A stretch of 59,626 nt of DNA, the filler included, from Jimgerdemannia flammicorona (taxonomy: Eukaryota), in the NCBI GenBank assembly GCA_003990765.1. It is 3 parts of 3 records of this genome, joined end to end, with 100 filler letters (N's around TTAATTAATTAA, not from the genome) between each part and the next. Parts side by side here need not be neighbours in the genome. Positions count along the whole stretch, not along the records: positions 39,824 to 59,626 come from RBNJ01001848.1; 2 more parts are not named here. One strand, 5' to 3'. Each line of letters begins with the position of its first letter. The stretch's first letter is position 1. Both the position numbers and the translations under genes were made by a program. The notes beneath the pieces were generated by a model that was not told where the DNA came from, did no database searches, and worked only from the letters and a program-made list of their open reading frames with translations. This document shows, piece after piece, positions 7,638 to 54,940 of the stretch.

Positions 7638-7677
<40 letters not shown>

Positions 7678-12272: not shown

Positions 12273-12319
<47 letters not shown>

Positions 12320-29822: not shown

Positions 29823-31348
29823 ATGTCAATAAAAATAAAAGAGAAGTTATTTATGAAAAAGGAGAATAAGTATTACTCAGTATCTAGTATCTGACTCTGA
29901 ATAATATAGACTCTAAAAAGAAGCTTAGACTCTACTATATTGGACCATTCAAGATCCTTAAAAAATATAAACTTGTTCATATAAGTTAGACCTCTCAACA
30001 ATACTAAAAGAATTTACCCAGTATTTTATATATCTCAACTTCAGTCATATATACTAAATATCTTTGAAGAAAGAACTGTGTTACCTCCAGATCTAGTAAT
30101 TATTTATCAGTAATCAGAATATAAAATAGACTACACTTAGATCACAAGAATTACTGATTTGGATAAGCTACCAAGCCCACTCAGTACTATCTTATAAAAT
30201 GGAAAGAATATTCTAACTATAATACTATCTGAGAAATAGAAGATAATCTTTTACCAAGTAGTAACTTAATACAGATATCTGATATAATGAAAATTCTGAT
30301 AGAATTTCCAAAAGACAGTTATATCTCTAAATATCCCTAATGAAGAGAGGTATAAATATTCTAAAATAATCTCATATAAATAACTTACTCTCAATATAAA
30401 TACCTAGTAATAATACTAAGAACAAACTAAGAATAAGATTGCTACTACTATTCTTATAGCTATCAATACTAATAGAATTCTACTAAACTACTTTTTGTCA
30501 ATATATAAATCTCTAAAGATCTAGATCTAAATAAAGCTCAACAATATCTTAGAAGGATCTAATATTTCCAGACTTTTTACTACTAATAAAAATTAAAGGA
30601 GTACTATAAGATAGAATATCTTATTTATCAATAAGCTACTCTCAGTGCTACCAAATAATGAGTCCACCTTTTTATTAATAACCATATCTATATTATTATC
30701 AAAAGACTCTATATTCTTTTCTGCACCTAACTATAAGTCCTTCACTACCTCTGTAGAGTATCTTCTAAGAATATTGTTAATTTAAATGATGAATAATAAA
30801 GTGATATTGTTTTTCAAGTAGTCTAGTATACTGCTCTTCAGTTTGAAAAGTATCTGGAGTTTAGTGCTAAGTCTAATAAATAGACTCAGATAAAGAAGAG
30901 AAGAATGTAATAAATTATTACATATATATCTACAAAGCTGCTGGAATTTCTAATAGAAAATTCTATGGAAATTTCTATAGAATTTTTTATAAAAATTTCA
31001 ACTAACAATCATAGTTATCTAAAATAGTATAAATATATAGATATATCTAGTATACTATATTTAGTTATAGTCTCAAATATGTATAAATACTCTCTATACT
31101 GATTTTGTTATAATCTCAGCTCTACTTTCTCTGAATTCAAGAATAAAGTAACATTCTTATTACAAAACTCTCAGATCTGACTTATTAACAATTCTAAGTC
31201 TGATCAACTTGGAATACAAGTATGGCACTTCTATCTATATAAAAATCTGAAAGCAATATCTGAACTCTACTATAACAGATAATTGGAACTCAGTACTTTC
31301 TCACAAAGACTTAGAACTTAGGACCAATAGTTAGTTGAATTATTCACA
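29823..31348 (+). mobile_element. Very decayed chromovirus 3' end F (integrase GPF module, chromodomain, PPT, LTR), host of element B
   Basis: YIGPFKI at about 29936, YLIKWKEYSNYNT at about 30188, purine tract then TGTAAT at about 30906. Confidence 0.65.
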
Positions 31349-31382
31349 ATATATTAATTCTATTAGTATATAGTTTTATTAT

Positions 31383-32789
31383 TGTAACATAGTAGATGTA
31401 TAACTATAGAAGTATGTTGGATTTCAGTATCTTAGAAACTTGATCTTCTTTGACTCTGCAGAGTCCTCAGGATGTAAGAGTGGGTAAGTTTAAAGTATAT
31501 CTACCTATAGACTTACTAGTTCTTTTGCTTTTTCTTTACTTTGAACTATTTTGATCTGAGGTTTATTTACTCTAGATACTGGGGATTTATATAAGTTTGC
31601 TAGCTATAGGGTGGCTAAATTATAACTATATTTCCTGTGAGTTACTTTTCATAAGTATTAAACTTTTAACATTTGCTAAAACTTTGACAATTGCCAAAAG
31701 TTTAATATCTGCAAAATCTTCAACATCTGTAAAGAGTTTAACATTTGTAAAAACTTTAACAGTTGTGAAATAACAATAACTGCTATTTGTAAGATTATAC
31801 TATATTAGAAATTGAGTTCAGATACTATGGTAAAATGTCTAATTTCCTTGATTTATATTTCTAATTCAGATCAACTATTACAACTTCCTCCTAAATAAGT
31901 AATTTATCTCTGAAATATCCCATTCAAACTCCCAAACTTCTATGATTTGTATCTTTTTATATTGTGTGATTTGTATTATTACATACTTCCAGTAGTATCT
32001 TTTAATATATCTAAAGTCTCCTGAGACTACTCTATGAAGATGGGCTAGAGCTGGCTCATCATTCTTGAACATCTTGTTGACTTGTTTGGTAGTTGTAATC
32101 TGAGTATGAGAGAGCTAGCACTCTCTAATCTAGTCTTCTTTTCCCATGTCTAGTCATGAGTTTAGTAGCTATCTCAATTTGAAGTATTCTTTAAACTTAA
32201 TTTGGTTCTAGTAGACTTTGAAGTGTGAGATTTATGACAAGTGTGTCTGAACTATACTCTATATACTGTCAAAGGATTCTTCTATAGTTGGTAGCTCAGT
32301 AGTATACCATAGTCTTTCTATAGCTCACTATGCAGCACTGATGATCTTGAGGGCTGTAGTAGTACTTTATTGATTAGCCATAATACTTTTTGAGTTAGTT
32401 TTGATGAATAGTAGTAGAGGTGATTGTGTCTGAGAGTTTTTGTAGCCAAAAGGTGGTTTTTTTTATATCTTATATCAGGTAAGGTTCTTCCTACTTAGGT
32501 TCCAGTTTTTATGACCATAAAGCTTCTACTATGTTCTGATATATTAAGACTTTGTCTCCTATCTTGATAATCTCTAGGGGCTTGAAAATCTTTTCTGTAT
32601 TATTTCATTATAGTATCTGTACCTTGGTTATATAATTCTTGGCCTTGTTCCTGATTTGGTATAGTCTTTATATCTCTGTATCTATATATATATTTCCATA
32701 TAGTATCTCTATTAGACAATAGGGTTCCTTGAGAACTTTCTTCTCTGAACAGCATCTCTTGAGGAATGAAATGAATACTTTATAACTAG
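31383..32789 (-). mobile_element. 3' fragment of Ty3/gypsy element C2 (LTR 31383-31882, PPT, accessory ORF, integrase C-terminus)
   Basis: Colinear diverged copy of 32790-34150. Confidence 0.85.
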
Positions 32790-35700
32790 TATAATATAGT
32801 GGATGCTTAACCTTGGAAGTATGTCAGATTTCTATATCTTGAAAACTTAATCTTCTTTGACTCTGCAGAGTCTTTAGATGCAGAGGGGTGAGTTTGAAGT
32901 ATATCTGCCTACAGACTTACTAGTTTCTTTGCTTTCTCTTTGCTTTAAACTATTTCAATCTGAGGTTTATTCACTCTAAGATACTGGGTTATTTATACAA
33001 GTTTGCTAGCTATAAGGTGGCTAAGTAATGAGTCATTTTCTGCAAGTATTAGATCTTTTAACATCTGCTAGGATTTCACTGATTACCAATTTTCTAACAT
33101 CTCCTGAATATTTGCAAATGTTAAAGTTTCTGCACTTTGCAGAATATGACTGCTATTTGTGTGGCTATACTATATCAGAAATTGGATTCAGATACTGCAA
33201 TCAAAATGTCTAATTCTCCTGATTCATATTACTAATTCAGATCAACTATCACAACTTCCTCCTGAATAGGTAATTCATCTCTGAAATATCCTATTCACTC
33301 AAACTCCCAGACTTTTACAATTTGTATCTCCTTGTACTATGCAATTTGTGCTATTACATTCTGCCAGTATTATCTCCTAATATATCCAAATTCTCCTTGA
33401 GTTATCTCTCAGAAATGAGCTAGAGCTGGCTCATCATCCTTGAATAACTTATGCACTCTCTTGGCAATTGTGATCTGAGTGTAAGAGAGCTGACATTCTC
33501 TGATCCAGTCTTCTTTTCCCATTTTTGACTTTGAATTCAGTAGTTGTCCTAGCCTGAAGTATTCCTGAAACTTGGTTCAGTTCTGGTAGGCCTTGAAGTG
33601 TGAAATTTATAACAAGTGGATCTGGACTATACTCTGGATACTATCAAAGGATTCCTCTATTGTGGGTGACTCAGCAGAACACCACTGTCTTTCTATGGCT
33701 TATTGGGCAGCACTTGTGATCTTGAGGGCAGCTGCATTACTTTATTGACTGCTCATAATACTTCTTGAGTCAGTTTTGGTAAATAGTAGTGGGGATGATT
33801 GTGCCTGAGAGTTTTTGTAGCTAAAAGGTGGTTTCTTTTATATCTTGTACAAGGTAAGGTCCTTCCCACTTAGGCTTCAGTTTTCATGACCATGAAGCTT
33901 CTATCATATTCCGATATACCAGGACTTTGTCTCCTATCTTGATAATCTTCAGAGGCTTGTGAATTTTTTTCACATTATTCCATTGTAGTATCTGCGCCTT
34001 GTTTATGTAATCTTCAGCCTTCTTCCTGATTTGGTGTAGTTTTCATATCTCCATATCCATGTGTTTCCATACAGCATCTCTATTGGATGATAGGGTTTCT
34101 TTTCTCCAAATAGCATTTCTTGAGGGGTAAAGTGGGTGCTTTGTGATCAGATATCTTGAAGAGCAGATAATGCTATTGGCAGATAGTGATCCCAGTTTTC
34201 ATAGTTATTACAGATCTTAGTGATAACATTCTTGAGAGTCTTGTTAGTCCTTTTCACCTGTCTATTTCCTTGAGGGTGATAGGCTGTGGTCTGAATATGC
34301 TAAATCTTGTACTTCTTGTAAAGAACCTCAAAGAACTGATTCATGAATTCTGTTCCTCTGTCTGTGGTTACTTACATTGGGGTCTTGAATTGGCAGATGA
34401 TTTCTTTGTAGAAGAAATCAGCAATTAACTGTGCATTGGCTTCTTTGAGGGGTCCTGCCTCTATCCATTTTATGAAGAGGTCTACAATGACAATGATGTA
34501 TCAGTTGCCAGGGTAGAGGGCCAATTACATCTATTGCAATGTAGGTAAATGGTGCTGGTTCTATATGTGATCATCTTAGGACTTAATTTCATTGATCTTG
34601 TTTCTGCTTCTGGCATTTGTCACATATCTTGACAAATTGTCTAATATCTTCCCCCATTCCTGGCCACTACATTTTTCTTCTTGCTTTATCATATGTATTG
34701 GTTCCTCCTAGATGGCCAAGTTTATGTACTGATTTCATTGCTTACTCCTTCTTGTGTTCTGGTATAACTAGTAGTTTTCCTTTCTTCAGTGTTTCTCCAT
34801 TAGTCTCAAATTGTTTTTATGTTCTATTGATAATCATTTGAGTCCATTCTTTTAGATATTGGGGCATCCTTTGCTGTCTCAGGTATGTGATGATTCTATA
34901 GTAGAGTTCTTTATTCATAATTGATTTGCTGGTTGGGAGTCCTTCAGAGTATCTGTGAGAGAGTATCTACATTGGCATTGGTTCTTTCTGGGCAGTGCAC
35001 AATGGTTATATCATATGCTTGTATGTAACTTCATGATCCATCTGGCATAGATTCCTTTGGGTTGCCCAGTGATCAGTAGTCAAGTGAGGGCTGAGTAGTC
35101 TATCTGAATGGTGAAGTGTCTTCTAGCAAGATAGTAGTGAAACTTTTCTACTACCCAGATGACTGCGAGGCACTCCAACTTGTATAATTTATATTTCTTT
35201 TCAGCTCCTCAGGTTCTATGGCTGAGGTATGTAATGACATACTCTACTTTGTCTTTCTTTTGAGCTAGGACTGCTCCTAGTCCTTGTGCACTTGTATCTG
35301 TCTGAAGGATGAATTCTTGGGTCCAGTCTGGTCTTCTAAGGATGGGTGCTTGGGTCAGTCTGACCTTGAGCTCATCGAATGCTTGTTGCTGCCTGCCCAT
35401 CTATTGGAATTTGATGTCCTTTTTGTTTAGTTCATAGATTGGGCTTATGATGTTGGAAAATCCTCTAATAAATCTATGATAATAGGAGGTGAGTCCCATG
35501 AAGGCTTGGGCTTCAGTAATGGTAATAGGTCTTGGGTATACTGCTACTGCTTATATCTTAAGAGGGTTCATATATGTTCCATCTTGATTGATGACATGAC
35601 CAAGATAGGAGATCTCAATTTCTGCAAACTTGCATTTCTTGGGCTTGATGTAAAGACCATGTTCTCTTAGCTTCTCTATTATCTGCTGGATATGCTGCAG

Positions 35701-37167
35701 ATATTCTTCAGCTGTCTTACTATAGATGATTACATTATCTATGTAAACTATCATCTATCTTTCTATATTATAGTGGAAGATTTTGTTCATCATTTGCTGG
35801 AAGCTTGCTGGTACATTGCACATTCCAAATGGCATTTACAGATAGATGTAGGTTCCATCTAGAGTTATGAAGGATGACCTTTTACTTGCTGCTTCAGTGA
35901 GACCAATTTGATAGAATCCTGAGTATAAGTCCAAGGTACTGTAATACTGTACTTCATCTCCTAGAGTTACAAGAATGTCACTGATAAGGGGCAGTGGTTG
36001 GCAATCTTTCTTAGTAATCAGATTGAGTTTTCTGTAATCAGTGCAGAGTCTTGGGGTGAATTCTCCTAGCTTGCTTCCTTTTTTCAGAGCTAATACAACT
36101 GGTGGAGCCTAAGGGCTGCTGGCTTCTTTGATACTGGCTTCTTCCATCTGCTTGATTTCTTCCCTAAGCCATTCATAGTAGACTGGTGGAATGGATCTTG
36201 CCTTCTGATAAATTGATTTGGTGTCTCCTGTGTCTACATCATGATAGTAGTATGGGGTCTTTCCTTTGATGTCTCTGAAATCTATGGCAAGGACATCCTC
36301 GAATTCATAAAGTATCTTCTTGAGTTTCTTCTTGAGTGGAAACTCATTTCTGATGATATAGCTATGCTTGTTTGTAGTTTCCTCCTTCTTGTGATCCAGT
36401 TTGGTGATCTTGGTGCTAGTGAATACTTCTCTTTCTATGGATCCAAATCCTTTTCTTCCTCTTTCTGTTTCCTCCAACTTCTTGACTTCCATGATCCTTG
36501 GCTGAAGAACTGGGAGGATCAACATCTGTGCCAGTTGGTCCTTCTTCTTGATTGGAAATAGAATTGTAGAATTGTGATTTCTAGCAATAAGTAGTATTTC
36601 TCCAATGTAATTGGAATTAATAACTCCTCCTTCAATTGTGATTTCACTCCTAGCCAGGCTGCTTCTTGTCTTGAGGATTCTGATATAGTCTTTTGAAATG
36701 GTCATTTTCAGACCAGTTACTAGTAGGGTGGTTGTCTGGGGTTCCAGTACAGTTTCCTCTACTGTGGCAATATCCATTCCAGCTGCATTTTCTGACTTGT
36801 ATTCTGATAAGACTGCATCAGAATGAATCTTCTGAATCTTGATCTTGATTTCCCCTTCTTCATCACTATCTTCAAGGAGGGCTGGTGGTTCATAATCTTC
36901 TTTCTCTATTCTCTTCTCTTCTCTTGCTTGTTTCCCAAGGGCCTTCTCTCTTCTTTGGTGGTAGATTTCCTTAATTTTACTGGTGCACTGATAATACTTA
37001 TTGATATGCTCCATACAGTACATTCAGATCCCATGGGGGCAGACTTCTTGTAGTGTATATCCTTTTGCGATCTTTTTGCACTATTCTTCTTTACTCATCT
37101 ATTCAACTTTCTTCTTCTTTTTCTGAGTGGTCACCATGTAGGCTTCCTCTTATTTGCTCTCTTGTTC
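32790..37167 (-). mobile_element. Ty3/gypsy element C1 (dUTPase-RT-RH / IN, accessory ORF, 3' LTR 32790-33253), relative of B, 5' part missing
   Basis: dUTPase (AGMDI, TRSSLA, GGVINSNYIGE, RGRKGFGS), VYIDNV, LQTDTS, GHLG..CDKCQ; PPT 33254-33263; colinear with B. Confidence 0.9.
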
Positions 37168-38450
37168 TGTAAGTATACAACCTCCAAGCTACTGAAATCA
37201 CATGTCACCCTCCAAACAAATCTGGAAATCACCTGCTTGATCACAAAGCTGAGTCAAACCAAAGTTATAGTATATGTATAAAGCTGAGTCAATATGAAGT
37301 CACAGAACACAAGATTTACACAAACAGAATCTAACCAATTAGGACCAAATGCATATATACTGAGCACCAAGATGTGTTGAAACAGAGAACCAAAACAAAC
37401 AACAACTACAACTTCTGAACATATACAAACATGACTACTGAGATCTACAACTATATCTGTGCTGATATTTGGAATACCATTGTCAACCAAGCCACACCCT
37501 CTCTACCCCTCATGAATATCTATAGTCTAGCACCCCTCTACTTTATGAAAGCCTGATGGAATGCCCTGAACATACTTAGTAAGGCCCACCAAATCAGACA
37601 AATCTCAAGCTACTATCAGATCAGCCACCTCCTAGAAGACATGATCAAACACCATCATAATACAGACATTACTCAGATGTCTCAACACCAGAAGCTCATT
37701 GCCTACAAACACAGAGAACTCTTCTATGAGTACAGCACCTTTATTCTCTGCCTTTGAGTCACTACCACTGAAATGGTTACTACTCTATCCTATGGCCAAA
37801 TCAATGACATGATACAAGAACTCAACCACAAGTACATTGAGTACATTCAGACCATAGACAGAACCTTCCTGCACTCTGATGACCAGATCCTGCAAATGCC
37901 TCAAGTTGAATATATCATGAAGAATATCTATGATATAATTCAATTTAATAAAGATGATACCAATATGACCTCAAGCCAAGGATCTCTGCCAACTCTGATC
38001 ACACCGCCAACCTTGCCAATGAACTTACAACAGTTCATAACCACATACAAGACTTATTGAGATAATGACCACTGGCATGAATACTAACCTGTGTTCACCC
38101 CCAATTACTTCAACTACAATGAAGAGACTAGAGAACACAACCTGTACCTTCAGACAACTCTCGAGATCAAACCAACCACTTCACCACCCAAGTATGAGCA
38201 ATATAAACCACAGCCACCAGCTTACTACAACCCCATGACTCATAGTGCTATAACCTATAGAAGGTATACAGACAGCGAATCTAATGAAAGTGAAGATGAT
38301 ATACCACTCCTTCACCTACCAACTCTATATCCAGCATATGAGACAGATGATGCTATTTTATGGGATGGTAATAAAGTCCCAATGTATTCAGGGCATCTCT
38401 CTCCAATACAATTCGCATTACACAAACTTCAAGCAATGGTTTTATATACA
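37168..38450 (+). mobile_element. Element D: probable LTR-like insert carrying a decayed accessory ORF (from ATG 37431)
   Basis: Abrupt TGTAAG start interrupting C1; one frame from 37431 joins ORFs 37773 and 38091; motif pattern shared with B and C accessory ORFs. Confidence 0.5.
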
Positions 38451-38453
38451 ACT

Positions 38454-39723
38454 CGGAGAAACAAACATGGGCAACACAGGCAACACAGGCAAGATGGGCA
38501 AGATGGGCAAGATGGGCAAGATGGCAAGATGGCAAGATGGGTAACATGGGCAAGACAGGCAGATGGCAAGACAGGCGACATGGGCAAAATGGGCAATATG
38601 GGCAATACGGGCAACATGAGCAACAAGGGCAACACGGGCAATACGGGCAACATGGGCAGGTAAGATAGGCAAGATGGGCAAGATAGGCAAGATGGCAAGA
38701 TGACAAGACAGGCGACATGGGCAAGATGGGCAAGACAGGCAAGACAGGCAAGATGGGCAAGACAGGCAAGATGGGCAAGATGGGCAAGATGACAAGATGG
38801 CAAGATGGGTGACATGGGCAAGATGGGCAGATGGCAAGACAGGAGACATGGGCAAGATGGGCAAAACAGGCAAAACAGGCAAAACAGGCAAAACAGGCAA
38901 AACAGGCAATACCAGCAATACTGGCAACACAGGCAGGCAATATGGGCAATACAGGCGGACAACACAGACAACATGGGCAACACAGGCAGGTAACACGGGC
39001 AATACAGGCAACACAGGCAACACGGGCAATACGGGTGGGTAAGATGGACAAGAAGGGCAAGACAGCAAGATGGGCAACATGGGCAAGATGGGCAGATGGC
39101 AAGACAGGTAATATGGGCAAGATGGACAAAACAGGCAAAACAGACAAAACAGGCAACATGGGCAACATGGGCAACATGGACAACACAGGCAACATAGGCA
39201 ACATGGGCAGGCAAGATGGGCAAGATGGGCAAGATAGGTAAGACAGGTAACACGGACAATATGGGCAAGATGGGCAAGACAGGCAATACAGGTAACATGG
39301 GCGGGCAACACAGGCAATACGGGCAACATGGGCAACATGGGCAACATGGACAACACAAGCAACACAGGTGGGTAAGACAGGCAAGATGGGCAAGATGGCA
39401 AGATGGCAACACAGGCAATATGGGCAGGCAAGACAGGCTAGATGGGTAAGACAGGAGGCACTAATAGGGGTAGGTCAGGTGCACTAGATGCCAAGTACTT
39501 GAGGTGGTTGGGGCTCACAACCCATACCCACTGGGTGGGGCAGGCCAGGTAGGAGGATCTAGTTACTCAGGTAGTGAGGTCACAACTTATACCCTAAAGG
39601 TATAAGGCTGGAAGTGGGTTGAGATTGGGGTAGAATGGGACTACTGATGTTGTATGAGGATATGTGGCATGTTATAGATAGTTAATAAATGAGTAACAAG
39701 GCTGAAAAAAAAAAAAAAAAAAA
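38454..39723 (+). mobile_element. Poly(A)-tailed non-coding retroposon P1 (VNTR + G-rich 3' end); 5' boundary approximate
   Basis: AATAAATGAGTA then poly(A) running into the gap; 3' motifs shared with P2. Confidence 0.55.
38466..39455 (+). repeat. 9-bp minisatellite (GGCAAGATG/GGCAAGACA/GGCAACATG/GGCAATACG variants) with higher-order blocks
   Basis: Directly visible GGCAA-core tandem units over about 1 kb. Confidence 0.95.
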
Positions 39724-39823
39724 NNNNNNNNNNNNNNNNNNNNNNNNNNNNNNNNNNNNNNNNNNNNTTAATTAATTAANNNNNNNNNNNNNNNNNNNNN
39801 NNNNNNNNNNNNNNNNNNNNNNN

Positions 39824-39951
39824 AAGAGAAGATTTTTAGATATTTAGAATATACTAAAATATAGTAGAATATTTAAGAAAAGACAAAAAAAAAACTAGAG
39901 AAAAGATATAAAAAAGTTCTAAGACTAAAATATAACTGTGAAATTATTATA
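39824..39951. repeat. Fragment of another A/E-family LTR
   Basis: Similar to the right ends of LTRs 40012-40475 and 46955-47317 (…aagactaa…actgtgaaatt…). Confidence 0.7.
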
Positions 39952-40011
39952 AAGGATCTGGGTAAAAAGGTTGTAATTATATCTAAGATATACTAGAGAT
40001 CCCAGATAGTT

Positions 40012-43000
40012 TGTAACAGTTCTAGTTTCTTTAAGAGGAAGTGGCTAAATCTAAAAGTTCTAGTTGATCTAAAGTAACTCAAAAAGATACTTAAAGGTTC
40101 AAGTGTTCTTGAAGGATTTCTGAGAGAAAAATATTCTGAGCTTTATTCAGGCAGAGAATAAGGATATTTATATATAATCTGAAAGAAAGATCTGGAAGGA
40201 TCTTGGAAAGAAAGAAAAATGCCAAGAAATAGATTCTCAGTAAAGCTGACTAATACAATTCTATAATGTTCTGAAAGATTCCATGACTAGCTAAGACAAG
40301 ATACTTGGTGCCAAGGAAAGACAAGAATGTTCTAGTGGTGTCTGGGTGTAGAGAGAAGATTTCTAAGCAAGTTAAAGGTGATGGAACATAGTAGAATATT
40401 TAAGAAATAATAAGAAAAGACTAACTAAAAGAAACAAAAATGTACTAAGACTAATATGACTGTGAATTTATTACATCTCTCTCTCCTTAAGAACCAATAT
40501 CCTCATTGAGTTCTTAAGTAACATAAGACTAGATATACTTAACTAAAATTTCTCAAACTTATATCAGTATATTGATAGAGATTAGCCATTCTTGTATAGA
40601 GCAGAGGGCCTATTATAACAGACTAACTAACTGAGAGGGGTTCAAACCCAGCTAGTAGCTTTATTTTAGTAGACTTCTTGTTCATTAAATGTTCTACTGG
40701 TTCTGGGTTCCCAAAGTAAACTTTTAATGCATAAGATACTGGTCTTTGCCATAGATCATTGATAATCCAAGAAAGTCACTATAGGGATTGGGCAATGTAT
40801 TTTGCCTCAAAGTCTTAAACTAGATCTTAAGAGTTCTTGAGGTTGACCAGTAGTTCTCAGGTAGTATCATATTTGGGGTAATCCATCCACTTGACTAGAT
40901 ATTCAGGATGGTGATAATAGATTCATTTGTCAAGAATTTTCTCAGCTTCATACTCAATGTGGTCTTCAATAATCATGAAAGCAAAAGGCTTAGAAATTTG
41001 ACCAGGGTAGAGTGGTGACTGGTTTTAGGTCTTGAGGTGTGATATATGAAAGACTGGGTATACTCTCATGGTTTCAGGTAGCTTGAGGTGGTAGAAGGAT
41101 ACAGAGACCTGTTCAGTGATCTCAAAAGATCCAATATACTTAGGTTGGAACTTGTTCAAAGGGTGATTGATTTGGGATTATATCTTGAGATTCTCAGTAG
41201 ACAGTAGAACTTGATCTTCAACAGTGTAAGTGATATTATGGCATTTCTTATCAGCATACTTGGCTTGATGCTGTTGAGCTTTCTGAAGATTTGCAGTAGT
41301 AATCTTAAGTGGTTTGTCCATTTTATCTATAAGGTTCTTGGTGGTTAGAACTTATATTTGACTAGTTTTCTTAAAAGGGAATAGACTTGCAGAGGTTTTG
41401 GGATCTTGACCATAGAGTAATCAGAAAGGGGAAAGACTAGTAGATAATTGAATAGCATTGTTGTATATAAACTCTACATAAGTCAGATAGTGGTCTCAAT
41501 TATCTTACTCATAGAAAACATAGTTTCTGAGTATTTGTTCTAGAGTTCTATTCATGTGCTCAGTTTGTTTATCAGTTTATGAGTGAAAGGCAGTAGACAT
41601 AGCCAATTGGGTTCCCAGAGTCTTGAAGAGAGTTTGCCAGAAGTGACTAGTGAACTTGGGGTCACAATTGCTAAAAATTACTCATAGTAGGCCATAGTGA
41701 CAGAAGATGAACTTGAAGAAGATTCTTATAATTTCAGATACAGTAGCATTGGTAGTAGTTGGTTCAGCAACCATAGTCTTGGTCAGGTGGTCAATGAATA
41801 TGATGATAGTATTAGTACCAGATTGAGTTTATAGTATTTGAGTTATAAAGTCCATAGTGATTTGCTCAAACTTCTTGGTAGGAATTGGCAGTAGTTATAG
41901 TAAACTGACAGGTGCTTGGTTGGTAGACTTATTGCACTGATATAAATTATAGCTGGTAACATAGTTCTTGATTTCCTTGACTATGTTTGGCCAATGGTAG
42001 TGATATTGGATGTTTTTAATAGTCTTCTCAATTCCTAGATGACTGGTAAGAGGGGAGTCATAGTGTTCATGCAAAACCTTATAGCATAGGTTTATATTTT
42101 CAGATAGATAGACTTGATTTTGATGATAGATCAGGTTGTTCTTAACAGTATATATATCTTTGAGCTTGTTTGAGAAAACTTTAGTGACAACTGTGTCTTC
42201 TTTGTAAACTTGTCTGATTTGGTCTAGGAATTCTAATACCAAGGTGACTTGTATGATTGTAGTGAGGTCTGGGCATCTTGATAAGACATCTGGTACTACA
42301 AGTGTCTTTCCAGGCTTGTAGATGATCATTGGATTGAAAGTTTGAAGCTTGAGGCTCCACTTGGCTTATAGATGTGACAGAGTAGATTGGGTATTGATAT
42401 ACTTGAGAGATTGATGATCAGTAATGACATCAAACTCAATATCTTCTAGATAGCATTACCAGTGATCTAGTGTATATATTATTACCAGTAGTTTCTTCTC
42501 ATAAGTAGCTAGCTTTTGTTTAGCTGGGGCCAGCTTATGGGACTTGAAGCAATAGGGTGATGTTCTTTGTCATCATCTTATGATAGAACTGCTCTAATGG
42601 TAAAATTTAACCCATTAGTAGTGACTGTGAATTTTAGGCCTTAATCTGCATTATGTAGGACTGGAGTATAGGTCAGGTAGTTCTTGAGTTCTTGAAAGGC
42701 TTATTGACAGAAGAGGTCTCAGATGTAGAATATATAGTGGTCTGAGTGCAGGGCCTTCCTCATGAGATTGGTCAGTGGTTCAGCAATACCAGAGAAGTTT
42801 CTGACAAAGCAGCAGTAATAGCCAGCTAGACCAAGAAAGGATTGGAGTTCTGTAAGGTTTGACAGAATGGACCATTCTTCAATTACTTCTATCTTGTGTG
42901 GGTCTACTTAAATTCCTTATATAGAGACAATGTGACCAAGATATTTGACTTATTTCTTGAAGAATATATACTTCTTGAGCTTGGTATAGAGCTTGTGTTT

Positions 43001-46000
43001 TCACAGGATCTCCAGGACTATTCAAATGTGTTTAAGGTGATCTTCTTTAGCTGCACTAAAGATCAAGATGTTATCAAGATATACCAACAGAAAAATAAAT
43101 AGTTGGTCCTTAAATATCTTATTCATCAGAGTCTGAAATGTAGTGAGTATATTGGTGAGACCAAATGCTAAGACCAGAAATTCATAGAGTCTAAAGGAGA
43201 TCATGAATGCAGTTTTGAGAATATCTTCTAGCTTGATTCAGATCTGGTGGTATCCTGACATGAGGTCTAACTTGGTGAGATACTTGACATTCTTGAGAGT
43301 ATTAAAGATTTGATCAATCAAGAGTAGCAGATAGCAGTTCTTGACAGTGATTTTGTTGAGTACATAATAGTCTATGCACATTTGTAGAGTACTATCCTTC
43401 TTTTTGATAAATAAGACTGGTGAGCCATAAGGAGATTTGCTTGGCTGGATGGCTCCTCATGTAAGTAATTCTTCTAGTTCCTTCTTGACTGCTTCAATTT
43501 CAAGTAGCAACATGCAGTATATGTGTTTCTTGAATGGTACAGCTCCTGGGGTCAGTTTGATTTCATGATCAACTTCTTGTATAAGTGGTAGACCAGGTAG
43601 CTTATCTGGAAAGACATCCTTGAATTCTTCTAGCAGTAACTTGATGCTTTTATTAACTGATAGTCTCTTGTCTTGTTTCTTGAGGCAGATCATTATAATA
43701 AAGGCATATATTGCCTTCTTGAGTACTTTCTTATACTATATAGCTGACAGTATTGCAATCTAGGTCTTGCTCATAGTCTTGTCTGTCTTGATCATAATAT
43801 TGGCTCCATCTTGAAGTAAGGTGACTTTATTCTTGCACTAATCAATGTCTGGATTGTGTTTTATAAACCAGAGTTTCCCTAAGATCAGGTCATAATCTTC
43901 TAGTGATACAATCTCAAAGTCTACTCATTCCCAATATTTCTAGATCTTGATGGGCAGTTTGGCAGCAATTGACTTAATGGGGTGTAGAGTACCATCTGCA
44001 GTGACTATACTATTGTTCTTGGGTACAGGCTTGGTAAGGATCTTGAGGCTTTCAATGAGATTCTGATTGATAAAGTTCCCTGCAGCTCTGCTATCTATGA
44101 GTACTTGAACTTCTTTTCCTTTGACTAGGCCTTTAAAAATGAGTATAGCTTGAGCTCAATTTTCACTAAGACTTGCTGCTTAATTGGTGCTGCTAAAACC
44201 CTTTTGATCTCATTTGGTTTTAGGGAGTTCTTGGACTTCTGTAATCTTGAGTTGACTGGCTTTTTCTAAGATCATTTGTGTGACTCAGTCTCCTTCTTTA
44301 ACTGTATAGTCTTGATCCTTCTGATTGATAAGCAAGACTTAAACTTATTCTCAAAAGTTTGAGTCAATAATACTAGCATCTATATCTAAATAATATTTGA
44401 CACTGAGTCCTGATCATGGTGCAATTCTAGCATAATATTCTTCAGAACATTGAACTGCAATTCCAGTAGGCACCAGAGTACAGCTCTTGGCTGAAATAGT
44501 GACTTGTTTGACTGAGTGTAGGTCAAGACCAATGACTTTTTCTGTTTGATATTGAGGAACCTGGGTCTTCAGATGAAGTTTCTTGACCTTGAGCTCAAGT
44601 TGACTGGTGGTGGGGTTGACAGATGTGTTCTTGGACAACACAGTGACTGGTCTTAAGGGTTTGCTAGTCTTCTTAGGACATTTGGTTGCAATGTATTCTG
44701 TTTGGTAACAGAAAAAATAGACTCCTAATTTCTTTAGATGGTCTTTTTGTTCAGGGGTGAGCTTGGTATTCTTTTTGTTCATAGTGTCTAAGTCCATTGA
44801 TGCCAGGCCAACTATCTTTGATTGGTTCTTGTGGCAGTTCTTAAAATGGGGTTTCTTGTGGTGTTCTAGTTTGAAGTAGTTGCCAAAGATGATGATAACA
44901 AATCTATCAACAATTCTTATAGCTTCATCAAGGTTCTTAGACTCTTCTAGCTCAACCTTGACTCATGTGTTTCCCTTCAGACCTCAGATATAGTAGTCTA
45001 TCTTTTCATCCTCAGATATTGCTGGTAGCTCAAGTAGAATTGATAGAAATTATGCATTATAGCTTTGTATAGACTTGAGTTACTTGATATTCACTAGCTT
45101 GTCTCTGACTAGCTTGGTGTATTGACAGGCTTAAACTACTTATAAAGGGCTCTTTTGAAAGCTTCCCAATCTCTGATTTGTGCATATGAGTGTATAGATA
45201 TAACTATAATATGATTTCACTACCAGATAGCTGTATTTCCTTGGAGAAGTATGGCGATAAATTAGACTTATATGTCATTTTCCATTTTTGTGAGCTCGAA
45301 GTATTGGTCCAACTGGAAGATCCATACATCTATAGATAGTCCTTCTTGATGGCTGTCAAAGATATCTAACTTAAGTGGCTTAAAACTGACTAATACTATA
45401 ATAGGATGTGATATATCTGCAGTTTGTGTTTTCTGCTATTTTAGTTGTGCTTGAAGTTCTTGGATTTGGTAGGCTATAGTATTGATCATATTCTCTATAC
45501 TAAGTTGCTGTCCTCCTACTTCTTCTATAGCAGAGGGGTCTGGTTGGTAGACTGACTCTTTATGGCTCATCTTGGGTTCATGTGACTAGTTGTGACTGGT
45601 TTCTAAATTTATATGAGGTTTCTTAATAAGGCAAGATATAATGGCATCACTGCTATCAAGTGTAATAGTTCTAGTTTCTTTAAGAGAAAGTGGCTAAATC
45701 TGAAAGTTCTAATTAGCTTAAAGTAACTCAAAGAGATACTTAAAGGTTCAAGTATTCTTGAAAGAGGACTTCTTTCTCTCGAACCATACTGGTCAAAAGG
45801 TCTAGGTGGAAATTAGATCCCTATGGTACAGGGGAAGGGGGGCCATTAGTGTCCCGAGATTGGGTGTGCCAGAAGTGACAAGAGAAGAGGAGTCCAATAG
45901 TGTTAAGTTGCCCCAATCTCAAGGCTACAGTTTTTAAGAATTCAAGGGTTTTGTCATTTCATAGGCCAGACAGTATGATGTAGGCTCTGGGAGCCACTGG

Positions 46001-47317
46001 TAAGTCCTTAAGGAGATGTGAAGTCTTACATCCAGTGATGTGGCTGGCTTCATGGTGAGCATCTGATTCACTGGTGTGCTCTGGCAGACTGGGAGATGTG
46101 GGTCAGGCCCTTAGGCTTTCTTTCACTCAGGGGGGAGACTCTCACTGCATCCTCAAGGCATAGAGATGTACCGAGTGATTTTGGAAGGAGCTCAGAGAAT
46201 TTTGAAAAGTACAGCTGATTATTGGCTAAGATGGATGAGGTGATCTCAATGTATGTAGTGATGGTAACTAGTGATTGATAGATGCAGGATGGTGTGATTT
46301 AAGATGGCAGTGATAATTGGGCCAGGTGATTGACTGGTAATGGTGTGATGATCAGTAGGGAGATCAGCAGGTGACTACTTTGCCACTTTGGGGAGAGAAG
46401 AGCTGGTAGGCCAGGTGTATGCTGCAGGGATACTCAAGGTGCTGGGGTCACATCCAGTGGTCCTTTGGGGTAAGACCAGGTATGATGGCAGTATCACTTG
46501 AGGTGCTGGTGTCACAAGCCAGACAGTGACTTCTGACTCAGAGTTGGAGCAGTAGTCAGATGGCAGACCTATTCATTAAGTATGTAGGCTAGCACTGGGC
46601 AGCCAAGGTGGGGTGGAGTAACTCATGGTTGGGGATTATCAGACCTGCATGCTATTTCATTTCTCTACATTATATATATTATTTGTATGAGGGGGCCAGT
46701 TGTGGCCTTGGTGGTGCATTGTTATTAGTAGGGAGGAGGGGGTAAGAGTGGCTCAGGGTAGAGAGAACCAGGCCCTGATCATCTTGACTTTGCTAAGGTT
46801 AGGTGTTAGGTAGTCTGAGACTACTCTTTTCAGGGCCTGACCCCACTTACTTTCTTGTCAGGTAATCTGGAAGATGTTTTCCTGCTGTTCACTATATAAC
46901 TGTATTTGGAATAAATGAGTATAGAAAAAAAAAAAAACAAAAAGTATTCTTGAACGATTTCTGAGAGAAAAATATTCTGAGCTTTATTTAGGTAGAGAAC
47001 AAGGATATTTATATATGATCTGAAAGAAAGATCTGGAAGGATCTTGGAAAGAAAGAGAAATACCAAGAAATAGGTTCTCAGCAAAGCTGACTAATACTAT
47101 TCTACAATGTTCCAAAAGGTTCCATGTCTAGCTAAGATAAGATACTTAGCACCAAGGAAAGACAAGAATGTTCTAGTGGTGTCTGGGTACCAAGAGAAGA
47201 TTTCTAAGTAAGTAGAAGGTGACAGAACATAGTAGAATGTTCAAGAAATAACAAGAAAAGACTAACTAAAAGACATGAAAATATACTAAGACTAAATATG
47301 ACTGTGAAATTGTTATA
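40012..47317 (-). mobile_element. Full-length decayed chromovirus E (gag-CCHC-dUTPase-PR-RT-RH-IN-chromodomain)
   Basis: LTRs 40012-40475 and 45661-47317; 5-bp TSD TAGTT (40007-40011, 47318-47322); PPT 40476-40488; VYLDNI; chromodomain EYEAEKILDK..EYLVKWMDYP at about 40800-40956. Confidence 0.93.
45763..46941 (+). mobile_element. Poly(A)-tailed non-coding retroposon P2 inserted in the 5' LTR of E
   Basis: 13-bp TSD AAGTATTCTTGAA (45750-45762, 46942-46954); AATAAA at 46910; A-tail; sister LTR shows the empty site at about 40101. Confidence 0.9.
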
Positions 47318-48659
47318 TAGTTAGTTATATAGCTAATGGCTGATCAGAATAGCTTAGTCTTAAATTTATAGATTGGTTAGTTAGCTAAGTAGTCAGATCT
47401 TATTTAACTCTTTTGATTTCCAAATTCTTCAAATTAAATAAAAGATTTATAAATACTACTTAATCAGTTAACTATAACTTTAAAACTGAGATAGAGTAGC
47501 TTGGTCTTAAATTTATAGATTGGCTAGCTGGCCAGACTAAATTTAAGACTAAGTCTATTTGGTCAGTTGGCTGTAAATTTAAAACTGAGTCACTCTGGTC
47601 AGCCATTGGCCATATGACTAGCTATCTGGAATATATATCAAAGACCTATAGTGCATCAATTATAGTCTGGTAATTAAAAGGTTTTCTAATATCAGAATTG
47701 TAAATAAGTTATAGATAGGAATATAAATAGTATCTAAGAGATCTTTCTGTAGAGAATTTTATTCCTTAAGAAGAGGTCTGTGATCTTTACTTGATAGAGC
47801 TATATATAATATAGATAGAGATATTCTGTCACATATAGATATTCTGTTGCACTATCATATAAATAATTACACAATTACTGTAGAGTTGAAATAAATATTT
47901 GGCCTATAATTAGTTAATTTAAGATCAATATCTTAGTAACTAATCTCTGATTTAAGGCTATAAGATATAGTATTTCAATATTTAAGACCACTATTATAGT
48001 AACTGGCCTCTACTACTGATCTTTGATTTAAGACTACAATTTAGTCTTATAGATCTTAGATTATATAAATCACTTTTGTCTATATTATAAACTAGCTAAA
48101 AGCTATTTATAATTATTAAGATAAAGAAAGATCAGCTAATCAAATATCTATAACATATTGTGAAATATCTCTTAAATAATGCTTCTTTTTCATATACTTC
48201 AATTTATAAGAAAATGTTCTATCTAGAGGTAGAGATGTATAATCTATAATAATTTCATTTATAATAGATAATAGATAGTAAATTGATTATTCTTAGACAA
48301 AAGTATATAAGATTTCTCTTATAGCCTTTTAATTGACTCAATACAAGTCTTGATGATCTGATTATCTTCTTTTATATTATTTTGGTAAGCTTCTTTTAGA
48401 ACCAACTAGTGAAGAATAATATCTTCTTCTTTTTTTTACATTAGATTGGTTTAGTAGAATAAATCCACTTTTCTATTATAAAGATATATATACATAATAG
48501 AGAATAATAGAAGAGTAGAGTGCAGTCTTTGTTATTGGAGAGAGGGGGGCTATATTGTATTATATGTAAGTGGGAGCTTTGTTATATTATAGATAGAGGC
48601 TTCATTATATCATAAGTAGGAGTATGATTGTCACAGAGTTTATTTCTAAAGAGTCTTCT

Positions 48660-51600
48660 GAGATTGACTCTCACTTGTATTCTCTTATAATTACTCACAT
48701 TTCTTTAGACTTTCTCTAGTATTACCAGAGTAAATAGAGAGAGCTTTAGTTTTTGGAGTAGTTTGGAGAAGAGAGATTAGTGCAGTTATCAATTTTTATC
48801 ACTAAAGAAAAGAGGTTGATATAGTTATTAATTATTGTCACTGAATTGACTCTCACTTATATTCTTATATTTTTTTAAACTTCCTCTAATATTATTAGAG
48901 TAAGTAGAGAGAGCTTTGTTTTTAGAATAGTCTAGAGAAGGAAAGTTGGTATAATTATTGATTTTTATTACTAGAGAAGGAAAATTGGCATAGTTATTTA
49001 TTTTTGTCACTGGAGAAGAGAGGTTAATATAGTTATTGATTTTTGTTACTAGAGAAGAGAGGTTGATATATATAGTTATCAATTTTTATTACTAGATTGA
49101 CTTTTACTTATATTCTCATATTTCTTTAGACTTTCTCTAGTATTGCTAGAGTAAGTAGAGAGAGCTTTAGTTTTTGAAGTAGTCTGAAAAAGAGAGGTTG
49201 GTATAGTTATTGATTTTTATTACTAGAGAAGAAGATTAGCATAGTTATTAATTTTTGTCACTAGAGAAAGAAAGTTGACATAGTTATCAATTTTTGTTAC
49301 TAGAGAAGAGAAATTAGCATAATTATCAATTTTTGTTACTAGAGAAGAGAGATTGATATATTTATCAATTTTTGTTACTAGAGAAAGGAGATTGATATAG
49401 TTATCAATTTTCATTACTAAATTGACTCTCACTTTCATTCTCATATTCCTTTAGACTTTCTCTAACATTGTCAGAGTAAGTAGAGAAAGCTTCAGTTTTT
49501 GGAGTAGTCTAGAGAGAAGAGATTGACATAGTTAGATAAGAAAGATGAATATTATTATTGATTTTTATTACTGAAGAAGAGAGATTGGTACAGTTATTAA
49601 TTTTTATTACTAAAGAAGAGAGGTTGATATAGGTATCAATTTTTGTCACTAGAGAAAAAAAGTTGGCATCATTATTGATTTTTGTCACTAGAGAAGGAAG
49701 GTTGGTATAATTATCAATTTTTATCACTAGATTGATTCTCACTTACATTCTCATATTCCTTTAAACTTCCTCTAGTATTGCCAGAGTAAATAGAGAGAGC
49801 TTCAGTTTTTTGAAGTAGTCTGGAGAAGAGAGGTTGGTGCAGTTATCAATTTTTATCAATAGAAATGAAAGGTTGGCATAGTTATTAATTTTTGTCACTA
49901 GAGAAGAGAGGTTAGTGTGGTTATTGATTTTTGTCACTAGAGAAGAGAGGTTGGTACAGTTATTGATTTTTATCACTAGAGAAGAGATATTGGTATAGTT
50001 ATTAATTTTTGTCACTGGAGAAGAGAAGTTGGCATGGCACCATCCAGGACAACCACAGCGAAACTGCACAATACCTCTCTGCTTCAATTAGGCGAGTTTG
50101 TGCAGAAAGTGATTGAGAGGCTGTACATCTTCTTTGTGGCAGACGTGACCATATTCACACAATCACTTTTGGCCATGAAGAAATTGTATGACATTGTCAA
50201 GAAGTCGGAACCAGCACCATTCTCTCCTTTCCCGGAGCTCTTAATTGAAGGCTTCAATCATGAACAAGTGTGGGAAGAAATAGCCATGCAGAATCAGCCT
50301 TTGTTGGGCTATGTTGTGGAACAGTTAGATAGTTTCATTGCAGCGGCCGAGCGAGATTTGAAGAACAGTAATGGAGATATGGTTAAGGAGGATGTGGACG
50401 ATGATGAGATATTGATAGGTGATGATGAGATATTGATGGGCGATGACAGCATGTTTGATGAGGAGCAGGAAGATACCAATGATGGGGAAGCAAATGGGAG
50501 TCGGTTTATTGATAATGAAGCAGAAGATGGAGAGGATGAAAATATTGATGATTTTGGACTCAATGAGATGGACGATGATGCAATTGAGCTGTCAGGAAAC
50601 CTGCGAAAGTGGGAATTAGCAACAGACAGTGAGGGGAATTTAGAAAATGAGGAGGATGACGATGGCAATGGCAATGACGATGACGATGACGATGACGAGA
50701 ATCTTGATGATCCGGATCTTGAACATTCATCTACATCAAAATGCCCTGCTCGAACATCCCAAGTAGACGATGCCTTTTTCAATCTCGACGAGTTTAATGA
50801 CTGGTCTGAATGGCAGGAGGAGCGTGATATGATGTCAGAAGATGATCAGGAAGAGGATGAGAATGAGGACGACATTATTGATCTCGACAAAGATCTGGAT
50901 AAGATGATATAGATGATACGATGCTAATGATGTGATGTTCAGTGACTTCTTCAAAGCACCTGCATGGCCTCATGGTGGCGTCGGCAAGCGCAATAACAAG
51001 AAGTCGATTCACTTTAGTACAGAACATTACGTGGACAAGCAAACAGACTGAAAAGAGATGGATGTTAGAGAGCAGGATCAAGAAGAAGAGCAGGCCACAA
51101 GAGTGAGCAACCTTTTCACCAGGGACAAGAACGAGGATGAGGCGGATGCTAGCAAGTCGGTATATGAAAAAAAATATGGAAAGAATCAAGCAGGAAATCG
51201 AGGTGCTGGAGAGTGCGAATGTAGGGGAGAAGGATTGGACATTAGGCGGCGAGGCATCAAGCAAAGCCCGGCCATTGAACAGTCTATTGGAGGAGGACTT
51301 GGAGTTTGAACATGTTGTCAAGCCCATCTCAGTTATCATGCAAGAGACAACCGAAACATTGGAAGAAATGATCAAGCGACAAATTCTCGATAACGCCTTC
51401 AATGACGTTGAACATAAAGCCAACCCAACTTTCCATCTGTATCTGCCATCAAAGAGAGTTGAGTTATTGGATGAAAAATCCAAAAAGTCCCTGGCAGAGA
51501 TCTATGAGGACGATTATGTAAAGGAGACCACAGTAGGCAGAATAGTGAATGAGAAGGACAAGGCACTCAAGAAAGAACATCAAGAGATCGATAACATGTG

Positions 51601-52080
51601 CCAGAAGTTGGACATATTGAGCAATTTCCATTATACACCCAAACCGCCAAAACCCGAAATTGCAGTCATCTTGGATGAGGATGTATACAACAAGAAGGGA
51701 TTGGTGAAGGGCGAAACTGAAACAGACCAGGCAGAGAGAAAGTGACAGTGGGCGGCCATAAAGAGGGTAAAGAAGAACAAGTTGGTGCTCAAGGCCAAGG
51801 TGAGAAAGGTGGCAGAGATGAATCCCACGTTGGCGGAGAGGCAGAAGAAGGCTGTGGCAACGTTGGCAGGGCAGAAGAACATTACCTTCATTGACAAGGA
51901 TGGCAACAAACGGCTGGCCAATAAGAAAAAAGAAGCACAAGAGGACAAAAAAGCGAGCAAGTTAAAGTTATGAAGGGAGTGCAGCATTTTTGGTGTGTCC
52001 CATTCGTAAACTGTATAATATGGCATGTTCAATTGTAATGAATTTTTCCCATAGATGTAATTTAGAAATTGTAAGAATGG

Positions 52081-52137
<57 letters not shown>

Positions 52138-52300
52138 GAGAAGTTGGCACATTTATTGATTTTTATCACTAAAGAAGAAAGATTGATACAGTTATTGATT
52201 TTTGTCACTAGAGAAGAGAGGTTGGCACAGTTATTGATTTTTATTACTAGAGAAGAGAGGTTGATACAGTTATCAATTTTTGTTACTAGAGAAGGGAGAT
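48660..52300. repeat. Tandem array of 39-bp units punctuated by a longer unit (132-bp period), interrupted by the MPP10 retrocopy
   Basis: Unit TTATTGATTTTTGTCACTAGAGAAGAGAGGTTGGTACAG and variants; spacer ATTGACTCTCACTT…GAAGTAGTCT recurs about five times. Confidence 0.93.
50035..52132 (+). pseudogene. MPP10: Processed pseudogene (retrocopy) of U3 snoRNP protein Mpp10
   Basis: ELLIEGFNHEQVWEEI, VDDAFFNLDEFN, KDWTLGGEASSKARPLNSLLEEDLEFEH; no introns, frameshifts, 3' UTR, long poly(A), 17-bp TSD GAGAAGAGAAGTTGGCA (50018-50034, 52133-52149). Confidence 0.92.
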
Positions 52301-52303
52301 AGT

Positions 52304-53156
52304 ATAGGGCATCAAGTGCTCAGTGTAGGTTACCTGCAGGTCCTCGGTGCCTGTGGTGGGGCCTTCTGGCTTTGGCGAGCTTCCCGGCAAGCGCAGTTCT
52401 GGCGTAGGTGACTGCTTTTTGGGTATTGTCGGGATGGGAGGGGAGATGGCTGTCACAGATAGGTGGAAGGGCGATTATGGTGAACCAGTAGGGTGCCAGA
52501 CTGGGGGCAGTCATCGGGGCTGGGGCAGGTGCTGCTTCAGTGGGGCCTTTTGATTGGTGCAGCGCAGTTAGGTGGTAGGTGTCACTATCAGCTTCTTTTG
52601 GCGGTCAGCGGGGTTGGGCCCCAGTCGTCAGGGGGGGTCAGGAGGCCCGAGGCTACCCATTTCAGGTGTCTTGGCTGCACTCAACTAGAACTGGGAGCTG
52701 ATATGGCAAAGTGATCGAGGTCCACAGACTTAAGTAGTGGGGTATTGGGGGTTTCCTCCCGCCTCACATATAAGTCCTTTACTCACCTTGACTGGGAGAA
52801 CCAGGCCCTACCCACCGTGTTGTGCTTTGATGAGGGTTTTTTATTTGCCTGTCATTCTCTTTGGGGTGGCAGAGGCTATTCTATTTGGCTTGGGCATGGC
52901 CTTGTACATACGTTGGGTTCTCAGGCATGTGCTTTCAGTCGTTGGCATATGGTTGGGTTTCCCCTGGTAGTAGAAAGAGCATGGTGTGCAGAATGAGGTG
53001 CAGGCTTATCAGCCCTGCTGCGCCTGGCATGGTTGAGCTGCTAGACAATAGCTAGCCTAGATTAATGGTGGGGCAGTGCTTGGTGGGTGGTGGGGGAGGG
53101 TTTTGGCCTATATAGTCTAGGTTCCCTTCCAATAAAAATCCATGGGACATGAGTCC

Positions 53157-53206
<50 letters not shown>
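52304..53206 (+). mobile_element. Poly(A)-tailed G-rich non-coding retroposon P3
   Basis: AATAAA at about 53130, long A-tail, candidate 7-bp TSD AGATA(G/A)T; keeps CpGs, unlike the array on its left. Confidence 0.6.

Positions 53207-53209
<3 letters not shown>

Positions 53210-54889: not shown

Positions 54890-54940
<51 letters not shown>

What the first reader, a model, noticed from the sequence alone, without database searches (positions are those of the whole stretch)
50018..52149. Full-length processed pseudogene of MPP10
Seen: intronless CDS, 3' UTR, long poly(A) and a perfect 17-bp TSD. The A of the ATG is the last TSD base. CpGs are partly retained, so it is younger than the array. Established: TSD- and poly(A)-bearing retrocopies are typical of mammalian L1 and are seldom reported in fungi. 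Inference: this genome has a LINE that mobilises host mRNA in trans.
Basis: partly seen in the sequence, partly recalled or inferred. Interest (0 to 1): 0.7.

Follow-up and report, generated by a model that had tools for sequence, protein, structure and literature searches.

The report
LINE-made MPP10 pseudogene in a fungus
A jumping gene's enzymes copied the spliced message of a ribosome-assembly gene back into DNA and pasted it into junk DNA of an early-diverging fungus; this is routine in mammals but rarely documented so completely in fungi.

Summary
Confirmed. Window 50034-52080 is a dead, intronless copy of MPP10. Its intact parent (G000:C6692, 681 aa) has 8 GT-AG introns, all removed precisely in the copy. 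The copy carries the 107-nt 3' UTR, an A52 tail and an exact 17-bp TSD, inside a 39-bp array within a CpG-depleted transposon island. Nearest proteins are labelled Jimgerdemannia (Endogonales). The genome holds an abundant L1-like LINE (APE+RT, poly(A), 10-16-bp TSDs) and many TSD-flanked U6 and U2 copies, so trans-mobilisation by target-primed reverse transcription is well supported; the responsible family is not proven. mRNA copies look rare: none for RPL21, GAPDH, cyclophilins or EF-Tu/EF1A-type genes, and none with a TSD in 40 sampled long tails. Yet MPP10 has a second intronless copy (C15112) that starts at the same ATG. That copy and two U2 copies carry one extra C at the 5' junction (0 of 28 U6 copies do), where mammalian L1 leaves G. 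This is post hoc and rests on three cases. The scan had earlier noted U6 copies and one parentless mRNA copy elsewhere in this genome. Verdict: new member of a known kind.

The parts
50018..50034 (+). Left target-site duplication, 17 bp. Its last 1-2 bases overlap the start of the copy (A of the ATG; possibly also the C before it).
50034..51973 (+). Spliced MPP10 coding sequence from ATG to TGA. All 8 introns are gone; 7 deletions (9, 10, 1, 12, 66, 3, 6 nt), 1 insertion, 3 frameshifting indels and 2 CpG-derived stop codons.
51974..52080 (+). 107-nt copy of the parent's 3' UTR, ending at an inferred poly(A) site. The parent has no A-run here.
52081..52132 (+). A52 tail
52133..52149 (+). Right target-site duplication, 17 bp, identical to the left
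48699..50033 (.). Left part of the 39-bp tandem array that received the insertion (0 CpG)
52133..52298 (.). Right part of the same array, resuming in register
20000..53207 (.). CpG-depleted transposon island (several broken Ty3/gypsy elements with dUTPase, and non-LTR derivatives) in which the copy lies; ends approximate

Best explanation
A processed pseudogene made by target-primed reverse transcription (TPRT). Shown: the template was spliced, polyadenylated MPP10 RNA; the insertion split one unit of a 39-bp array and duplicated 17 bp; the copy has since decayed without selection. Inferred: the ORF2 protein of an APE-type, L1-like LINE of this genome bound the host mRNA in trans, nicked the array, primed on the poly(A) tail and copied to the RNA's 5' end; a second nick about 17 nt away gave the TSD. 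Inferred: landing in methylated transposon DNA drove CpG deamination. Most likely (about 70% within this explanation) the template came straight from the parent gene, from a transcript that begins at or within a base or two of the AUG, which explains why both copies start there.
For: 8 of 8 introns removed exactly; 7 of these 8 appear as joints in RNA-like contigs of two studies. Poly(A) and TSD present, no LTR at the ends. Resident LINE with APE and RT, PDB best hit L1 ORF2p at E 1.4e-43 against R2 at 4e-15. TSD of 10-16 bp beside the element's 5' end in 14 of 20 LINE loci, 13 of them full length. 28 of 30 U6 loci read are flanked by a direct repeat, 26 of them 14-18 bp, and 2 of 13 U2 matches are TSD-flanked poly(A) copies. 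No purifying selection: CpG transitions at 50 of 149 nonsynonymous against 27 of 113 synonymous sites, p=0.10. C>T rate is 0.29 at CpG against 0.02-0.05 elsewhere. For a very short leader: out-of-frame ATGs sit at -11 and -31 in the parent, a divergent gene starts about 110 bp upstream, and RNA contigs show no parental sequence upstream of the ATG (contigs cannot show a true start).
Against: No direct link between this LINE family and this copy. Other non-LTR lineages are noted in this genome by earlier AI reports (unchecked). The base before this TSD is G, whereas 10 of 12 LINE TSDs are preceded by 1-3 A. Two copies of MPP10 but none of RPL21, GAPDH, cyclophilins or EF-Tu/EF1A-type genes is unexpected if mRNAs were taken by abundance. 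One substitution (mRNA position 622) is shared by both copies and is absent from both parental allele sets seen. Methylation was not measured.
Confidence: 0.85

Rival explanations
1. Copy of a copy: the same LINE machinery, but the template was a read-through transcript of the older retrocopy on C15112, joined at the 5' end through GGCA microhomology with that copy's flank.
For: Both copies start at the same ATG preceded by GGC and share one derived base. RNA-like contigs of two studies join the C15112 flank to the MPP10 coding sequence (loose ends). C15112 has more private non-CpG changes (11 against about 3 in the shared stretch).
Against: 10-11 substitutions and all 5 indels of C15112 are absent from the window copy. 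Truncation exactly at the old junction needs luck. The RNA joint can be a contig chimera or carried-over DNA. 4 of the 5 shared differences are simply alleles that are also seen in run X2.
Confidence: 0.2
2. TPRT by a different non-LTR element of this genome (a telomere-targeting L1-like family, another APE subfamily, or a Penelope-like element).
For: Several poly(A)-tailed families exist; earlier AI notes list others. The nick site lacks the usual A.
Against: TSD length and tail match the main family, which is by far the most abundant one seen.
Confidence: 0.1
3. LTR-retrotransposon template switch, or capture of free cDNA at a double-strand break.
For: Gypsy RTs are very abundant (19,832 first-look candidates) and the copy sits among gypsy elements.
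Against: No LTR sequence flanks the copy. LTR-element TSDs are 4-5 bp (PMC3956500, passages), not 17, and LTR-made copies are flanked by LTR sequence (PMC5470649, passages).
Confidence: 0.03
4. Assembly artefact: contigs mis-joined through a long A-run, with the 'TSD' being array periodicity.
For: Long A-runs are common and often end contigs. The array units resemble each other (mean 82%).
Against: The two 17-mers are the only exact pair of that sequence; the register is restored on excision; the copy differs from the parent by a strongly patterned 117 substitutions; the whole lies in one contig, C1848.
Confidence: 0.02

Closest known systems
L1-mediated processed pseudogenes of mammals (PMC5470649 and PMC3747384, passages read; Esnault et al. 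2000 seen only in reference lists)
   Same: Spliced cDNA, 3' UTR, poly(A), TSD of L1-like length, no promoter, neutral decay; made alongside U6/U2 copies as in PMC4476161 (passages).
   Different: Fungal host. The nick site is not TTTT/A: the LINE TSDs have only 0-3 A. mRNA copies appear rare against LINE and U6 copies. The extra 5' base is C in 3 informative cases, whereas mammalian full-length insertions carry G, attributed to the cap (PMC3287187, PMC11702581, passages).
LINE-made chimeric retropseudogenes (MINE) of Magnaporthe (PMC2104539, passages)
   Same: Fungal, LINE machinery acting on a host RNA, 10-20-bp direct repeats.
   Different: Those are a non-coding RNA fused to LINE or SINE parts; this is a stand-alone spliced protein-coding mRNA with its intron-bearing parent in hand.
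Zorro3 L1-clade element of Candida albicans (PMC3956500, PMC1965478, passages)
   Same: Fungal L1-type TPRT with a poly(A) tail.
   Different: Zorro3 targets poly(A) tracts and leaves no TSD; the LINE here leaves 10-17-bp TSDs at weakly specific sites.
Ty1/LTR-mediated retrocopies (as reviewed in PMC5470649, passages)
   Same: Intronless cDNA copy of a host mRNA in a fungus.
   Different: Those are embedded in LTR sequence; this one is not.

Membership tests
Processed pseudogene | Separate functional, intron-containing parent | tested here: met
   G000:C6692, 8 GT-AG introns, 681-aa open frame, spliced in RNA-like contigs
Processed pseudogene | Precise loss of introns | tested here: met
   8 of 8 junctions
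Processed pseudogene | Poly(A) not encoded in the parent, after the 3' UTR | tested here: met
   A52 after 107 nt of UTR; the parent continues without an A-run
Processed pseudogene | Disabled and free of purifying selection | tested here: met
   3 frameshifting indels, 2 CpG stops, nonsynonymous CpG hits not depleted
LINE (TPRT)-made retrocopy | Target-site duplication of LINE-like length directly around the insert | tested here: met
   17 bp; resident LINE 10-16 bp, up to 17 in truncated copies; U6 copies 14-18 bp
LINE (TPRT)-made retrocopy | An APE-RT non-LTR element with poly(A) tail in the same genome | tested here: met
LINE (TPRT)-made retrocopy | That element's ORF2 made this copy | not testable with these tools
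   needs a retrotransposition assay
Mammalian-type L1 insertion | TTTT/A endonuclease site | tested here: not met
   G precedes this TSD; LINE TSDs have 0-3 A
Mammalian-type L1 insertion | Extra G at the 5' junction of full-length copies | tested here: not met
   no extra G; an extra C in the sister copy and in 2 of 2 U2 copies; ambiguous in the window copy because the target also reads CA
L1 clade (versus Tx1 or other APE clades) for the resident LINE | Phylogenetic placement of the RT domain | not tested
   no named reference set held; only the PDB ranking and domain order; zf-RVT not detected
LTR-mediated retrocopy | Flanking LTR-element sequence, 4-6-bp TSD | tested here: not met
   flanks are the tandem array and the TSD is 17 bp

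The most novel reading that the evidence does not exclude
This fungal LINE marks the 5' end of capped RNAs with one added C on the sense strand rather than the G left by mammalian L1. That would rebuild a C/A initiator in front of each new copy. If so, both MPP10 copies record a capped transcript that begins exactly at the A of its AUG, that is an essentially leaderless mRNA for an essential nucleolar protein, and retrocopies in this genome could be read as fossil transcription-start maps.
Probability: 0.25. Interest if true: 0.7.

Novelty: new member of a known kind. Interest (0 to 1): 0.45.

Why it matters
It is a complete, parent-verified case of mammal-style processed-pseudogene formation in an early-diverging fungus, with a candidate enzyme and many small-RNA copies in the same genome. 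That puts 'relaxed' (poly(A)-recognising) LINE behaviour, discussed for mammals and flowering plants in PMC3747384, in Mucoromycota as well. The two sister copies form a natural experiment: one lost 82 of 140 CpGs in transposon DNA, the other 0 of 130 in normal DNA, so position rather than duplication decides the mutational fate. The 5' junction C and the start at the AUG are small but testable leads on LINE second-strand joining and on very short mRNA leaders.

Tried and rejected
zf-RVT and Exo_endo_phos_2 found no LINE; RVT_1 returned hits of gypsy-like length only. Exo_endo_phos found the LINE, so the first blanks were insensitivity. Contigs C15111 and C15113 are merely next in a length-sorted list, so the 3' end of the second copy was not recovered; they were not analysed further. 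Retrocopy screens were blank: RPL21 gave two exons of one gene; GAPDH two intron-bearing paralogs; cyclophilins 14 matches on 10 contigs with no near-identical pair; the EF-Tu/EF1A domain 3 dissimilar matches; window 1-19700 no spliced copy; U1 3 genes only. Positive control: the Mpp10 family search finds both copies. 'Retrocopies are rampant' is rejected on these screens and on 40 stretches from the first 42 of 9,179 long A-runs, all on large contigs. By eye, 20 are LINE-type tails, 12 plain A-runs in normal DNA and 8 others; 7 were extended by 1-3.5 kb and none had a TSD of 10 bp or more. A protein search with the LINE ORF2 gave three unnamed relatives at 25-26% identity, too few to place its clade. 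PMC5105311 held none of the terms sought. No strong target consensus emerged: the first base after the tail was G 14, T 10, C 5 of 29.

Full report
OBSERVATION. The window shows an exact 17-bp repeat at 50018-50034 and 52133-52149 around 2,047 bp of MPP10-like sequence and an A52 run. Pfam Mpp10 matches two broken frames. The insert interrupts a 39-bp tandem array. The array could mimic a TSD, so I tested this. The two 17-mers are the only exact copies in the window; 1 of 253 pairs among 23 other units is identical over these 17 nt; and excising the insert with one repeat restores the period. The array has no CpG and lies in a roughly 33-kb CpG-depleted island of broken Ty3/gypsy elements between gene-rich DNA with normal CpG.

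THE PARENT. A DNA search of the own genome gave 12 matches on 4 contigs: the window itself, nine exon-sized pieces on C6692, one continuous match on C15112, and a 44-nt match on C11617. C6692 carries an intact 681-aa MPP10 with 8 GT-AG introns of 80-148 nt, and the window copy reads through all 8 junctions exactly. Seven of the 8 introns appear as joints in RNA-like contigs of two studies; the eighth lies in a repeat that the tool skips ('RNA' is the tool's guess for these runs). The nearest proteins are labelled Jimgerdemannia flammicorona, then Glomeromycotina and other Mucoromycota, so the host is taken to be an Endogonales fungus (inference).

DECAY. Of 2,046 aligned bases, 117 differ: 82 CpG transitions (82 of 140 CpG sites), 24 other C>T/G>A and 11 others. 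There are 7 deletions and 1 insertion, three of them frameshifting. Five of the six window deletions longer than 1 nt have 2-6 nt of microhomology. CpG transitions hit 50 of 149 nonsynonymous, 27 of 113 synonymous and 2 of 8 stop-creating sites, so there is no sign of selection. This pattern excludes sequencing error and fits 5mCpG deamination (established chemistry; methylation not measured).

A SECOND COPY. C15112 holds another intronless copy (7 of 7 junctions on the contig; 16 substitutions, 5 indels, one stop) with 0 of 130 CpGs lost; its 3' end runs off the contig. It sits in a degenerate region that looks leucine-rich-repeat-like (my reading of the translation, not tested), with paralogs lacking the insert. 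Five differences from the parent are shared by both copies. Four are alleles also seen in run X2; one (position 622) is in neither allele set.

THE LIKELY ENZYME. Exo_endo_phos gave 4,968 first-look candidates, 150 scored. Twenty fetched loci belong to a 5.9-kb two-ORF element with APE and RT domains, whose best solved relative is human L1 ORF2p (E 1.4e-43; R2 4e-15). Its 3' end followed by at least 12 A occurs 989 times exactly. In 14 of 20 further loci a 10-16-bp TSD abuts the element's 5' end, and 13 of these are full length. Target preference is weak: 0-3 A at the nick in 12 TSDs. Host RNAs are clearly copied in trans. Of 48 scored U6 matches I read 30, and 28 are flanked by direct repeats, 26 of them 14-18 bp. 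Two of 13 U2 matches are poly(A)-tailed, TSD-flanked copies. A related non-autonomous poly(A) element lies right beside the finding at about 52291-53207.

HOW COMMON ARE mRNA COPIES. Screens of RPL21, GAPDH, cyclophilins, EF-Tu/EF1A-type genes, U1 and 19.7 kb of gene-rich DNA were blank, while the same kind of search finds both MPP10 copies. Of 40 sampled long A-runs, 20 were LINE-type tails and none was an mRNA copy with a TSD in the DNA fetched; one CpG-rich tailed island on C18 had no clear TSD. So mRNA retroposition happens but is uncommon, and two MPP10 copies remain unexplained.

THE 5' JUNCTION. Both copies begin at the ATG with no 5' UTR. The parent has T before the ATG; both copies have C. 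In C15112 an empty paralog shows that this C is not from the target; in the window it cannot be told from the target's own CA. Both U2 copies have one non-target C before the first U2 base, where the gene that matches their body has T. None of 28 U6 copies has a single extra C; 3 of 3 against 0 of 28 gives p=2e-4, but the test is post hoc. Many full-length LINEs also read C-A at the 5' end, but their template is unknown and some have longer extras. Mammalian full-length insertions carry an extra G, attributed to the cap (PMC3287187 and PMC11702581, passages). If the C marks the RNA's end, the MPP10 transcript began at its AUG. Out-of-frame ATGs at -11 and -31, a divergent gene about 110 bp away, and the lack of parental 5' UTR in RNA contigs fit a very short leader, but contigs cannot show a start. 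Against this reading: an unassembled U2 gene or an older MPP10 allele could have carried C; the two U2 copies share one parent; and the copy-of-a-copy rival explains the common start and position 622, helped by RNA contigs that join the C15112 flank to the coding sequence. That U2 starts at this A, and that U2 and mRNA are capped while U6 is not, is recalled knowledge.

MECHANISM. Shown: spliced polyadenylated template, staggered-cut insertion, neutral CpG-driven decay, a resident L1-like LINE with matching TSDs, and trans-copied snRNAs. Inferred: that this LINE's ORF2 did it (0.85 for TPRT by an APE LINE), direct from the parent (about 0.7 of that), and methylation as the cause of decay.

COMPARISON AND NOVELTY. 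It works like, and meets the tests for, a LINE-made processed pseudogene. It fails two mammal-specific marks (TTTT/A site, extra G). Seven literature searches returned, for fungi, only the chimeric non-coding retrogenes of Magnaporthe (PMC2104539) and the Zorro elements of Candida (PMC3956500, PMC1965478). None of the listings or passages described a TSD-flanked spliced mRNA copy with a known parent in Mucoromycota. The library lacks most subscription papers. The Endogonales genome paper was seen only as a citation in PMC10386755 (passages: more than 77% repeats), and its text and supplements may bear on this. Of all papers named I read search passages only, not whole texts. Earlier AI notes on this genome report U6 copies and a parentless mRNA copy; I tested the U6 claim independently. 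Verdict: real, well explained, a new member of a known kind; interest 0.45.

Noticed in passing
window 52291-53207: 5'-incomplete copy of a non-autonomous poly(A)-tailed element (A49, AATAAA). A 1.2-kb relative in L080 has a 14-bp TSD and LINE-like ends; 4 of 40 sampled long tails belong to this family. No TSD found for the window copy.
   Followed up: partly
window 38436-39723: Composite element: a head resembling the LINE's 5' end, a 9-bp minisatellite of about 104 copies, a unique tail and poly(A) running into an assembly gap; resembles the SVA-like element of note e1-7507708.
   Followed up: no
G000:C15112 (L014): Second intronless MPP10 copy with no CpG loss; 9 of its 11 private substitutions are at A/T bases, with 5 indels at short repeats.
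   Followed up: yes
G000:C11617 about 3520-3610 (L015): About 90 bp of the MPP10 3' UTR and downstream sequence, nearly undiverged, in very AT-rich DNA, without poly(A) or obvious TSD.
   Followed up: no
genome-wide (L189-L218): U6 retrocopies are abundant: 28 of 30 loci read have TSDs; ends are U-tailed or tailless.
   Followed up: partly
L179/L225 (C15771) and L182/L224 (C12305): Two U2 retrocopies: one full length with the gene's 3' trailer before poly(A), one cut at about 89 nt then poly(A).
   Followed up: yes
window copy, mRNA positions 1787, 1953, 2074: All three T>C changes are followed by G>A (TG to CA doublets), as if CpG was present or gained and then decayed; unexplained.
   Followed up: no
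G000:C6692 2257-2368 (L013): MPP10 and a divergent gene with a signal-peptide-like start are only about 110 bp apart; the neighbour's RNA contig also ends 3 nt before its ATG.
   Followed up: partly
G000:C18 about 20800-21750 (L284): About 0.9-kb CpG-retaining island ending in A81 inside CpG-free DNA, with a short ORF; no clear TSD.
   Followed up: partly
G000:C821 13364-13663 (L132): 300-bp CpG-decayed copy of part of the window's AMP-binding gene, colinear with the genomic sequence and without tail or TSD: looks like DNA-level capture.
   Followed up: no
window 20200-47000: Several broken Ty3/gypsy elements carrying dUTPase, on both strands.
   Followed up: no
window 7638-7677, 12275-12316, 54890-54938: Long pure A/T runs in gene-rich DNA without TSD (one T24 abutting A16); 9,179 runs of 30 or more A genome-wide.
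   Followed up: partly
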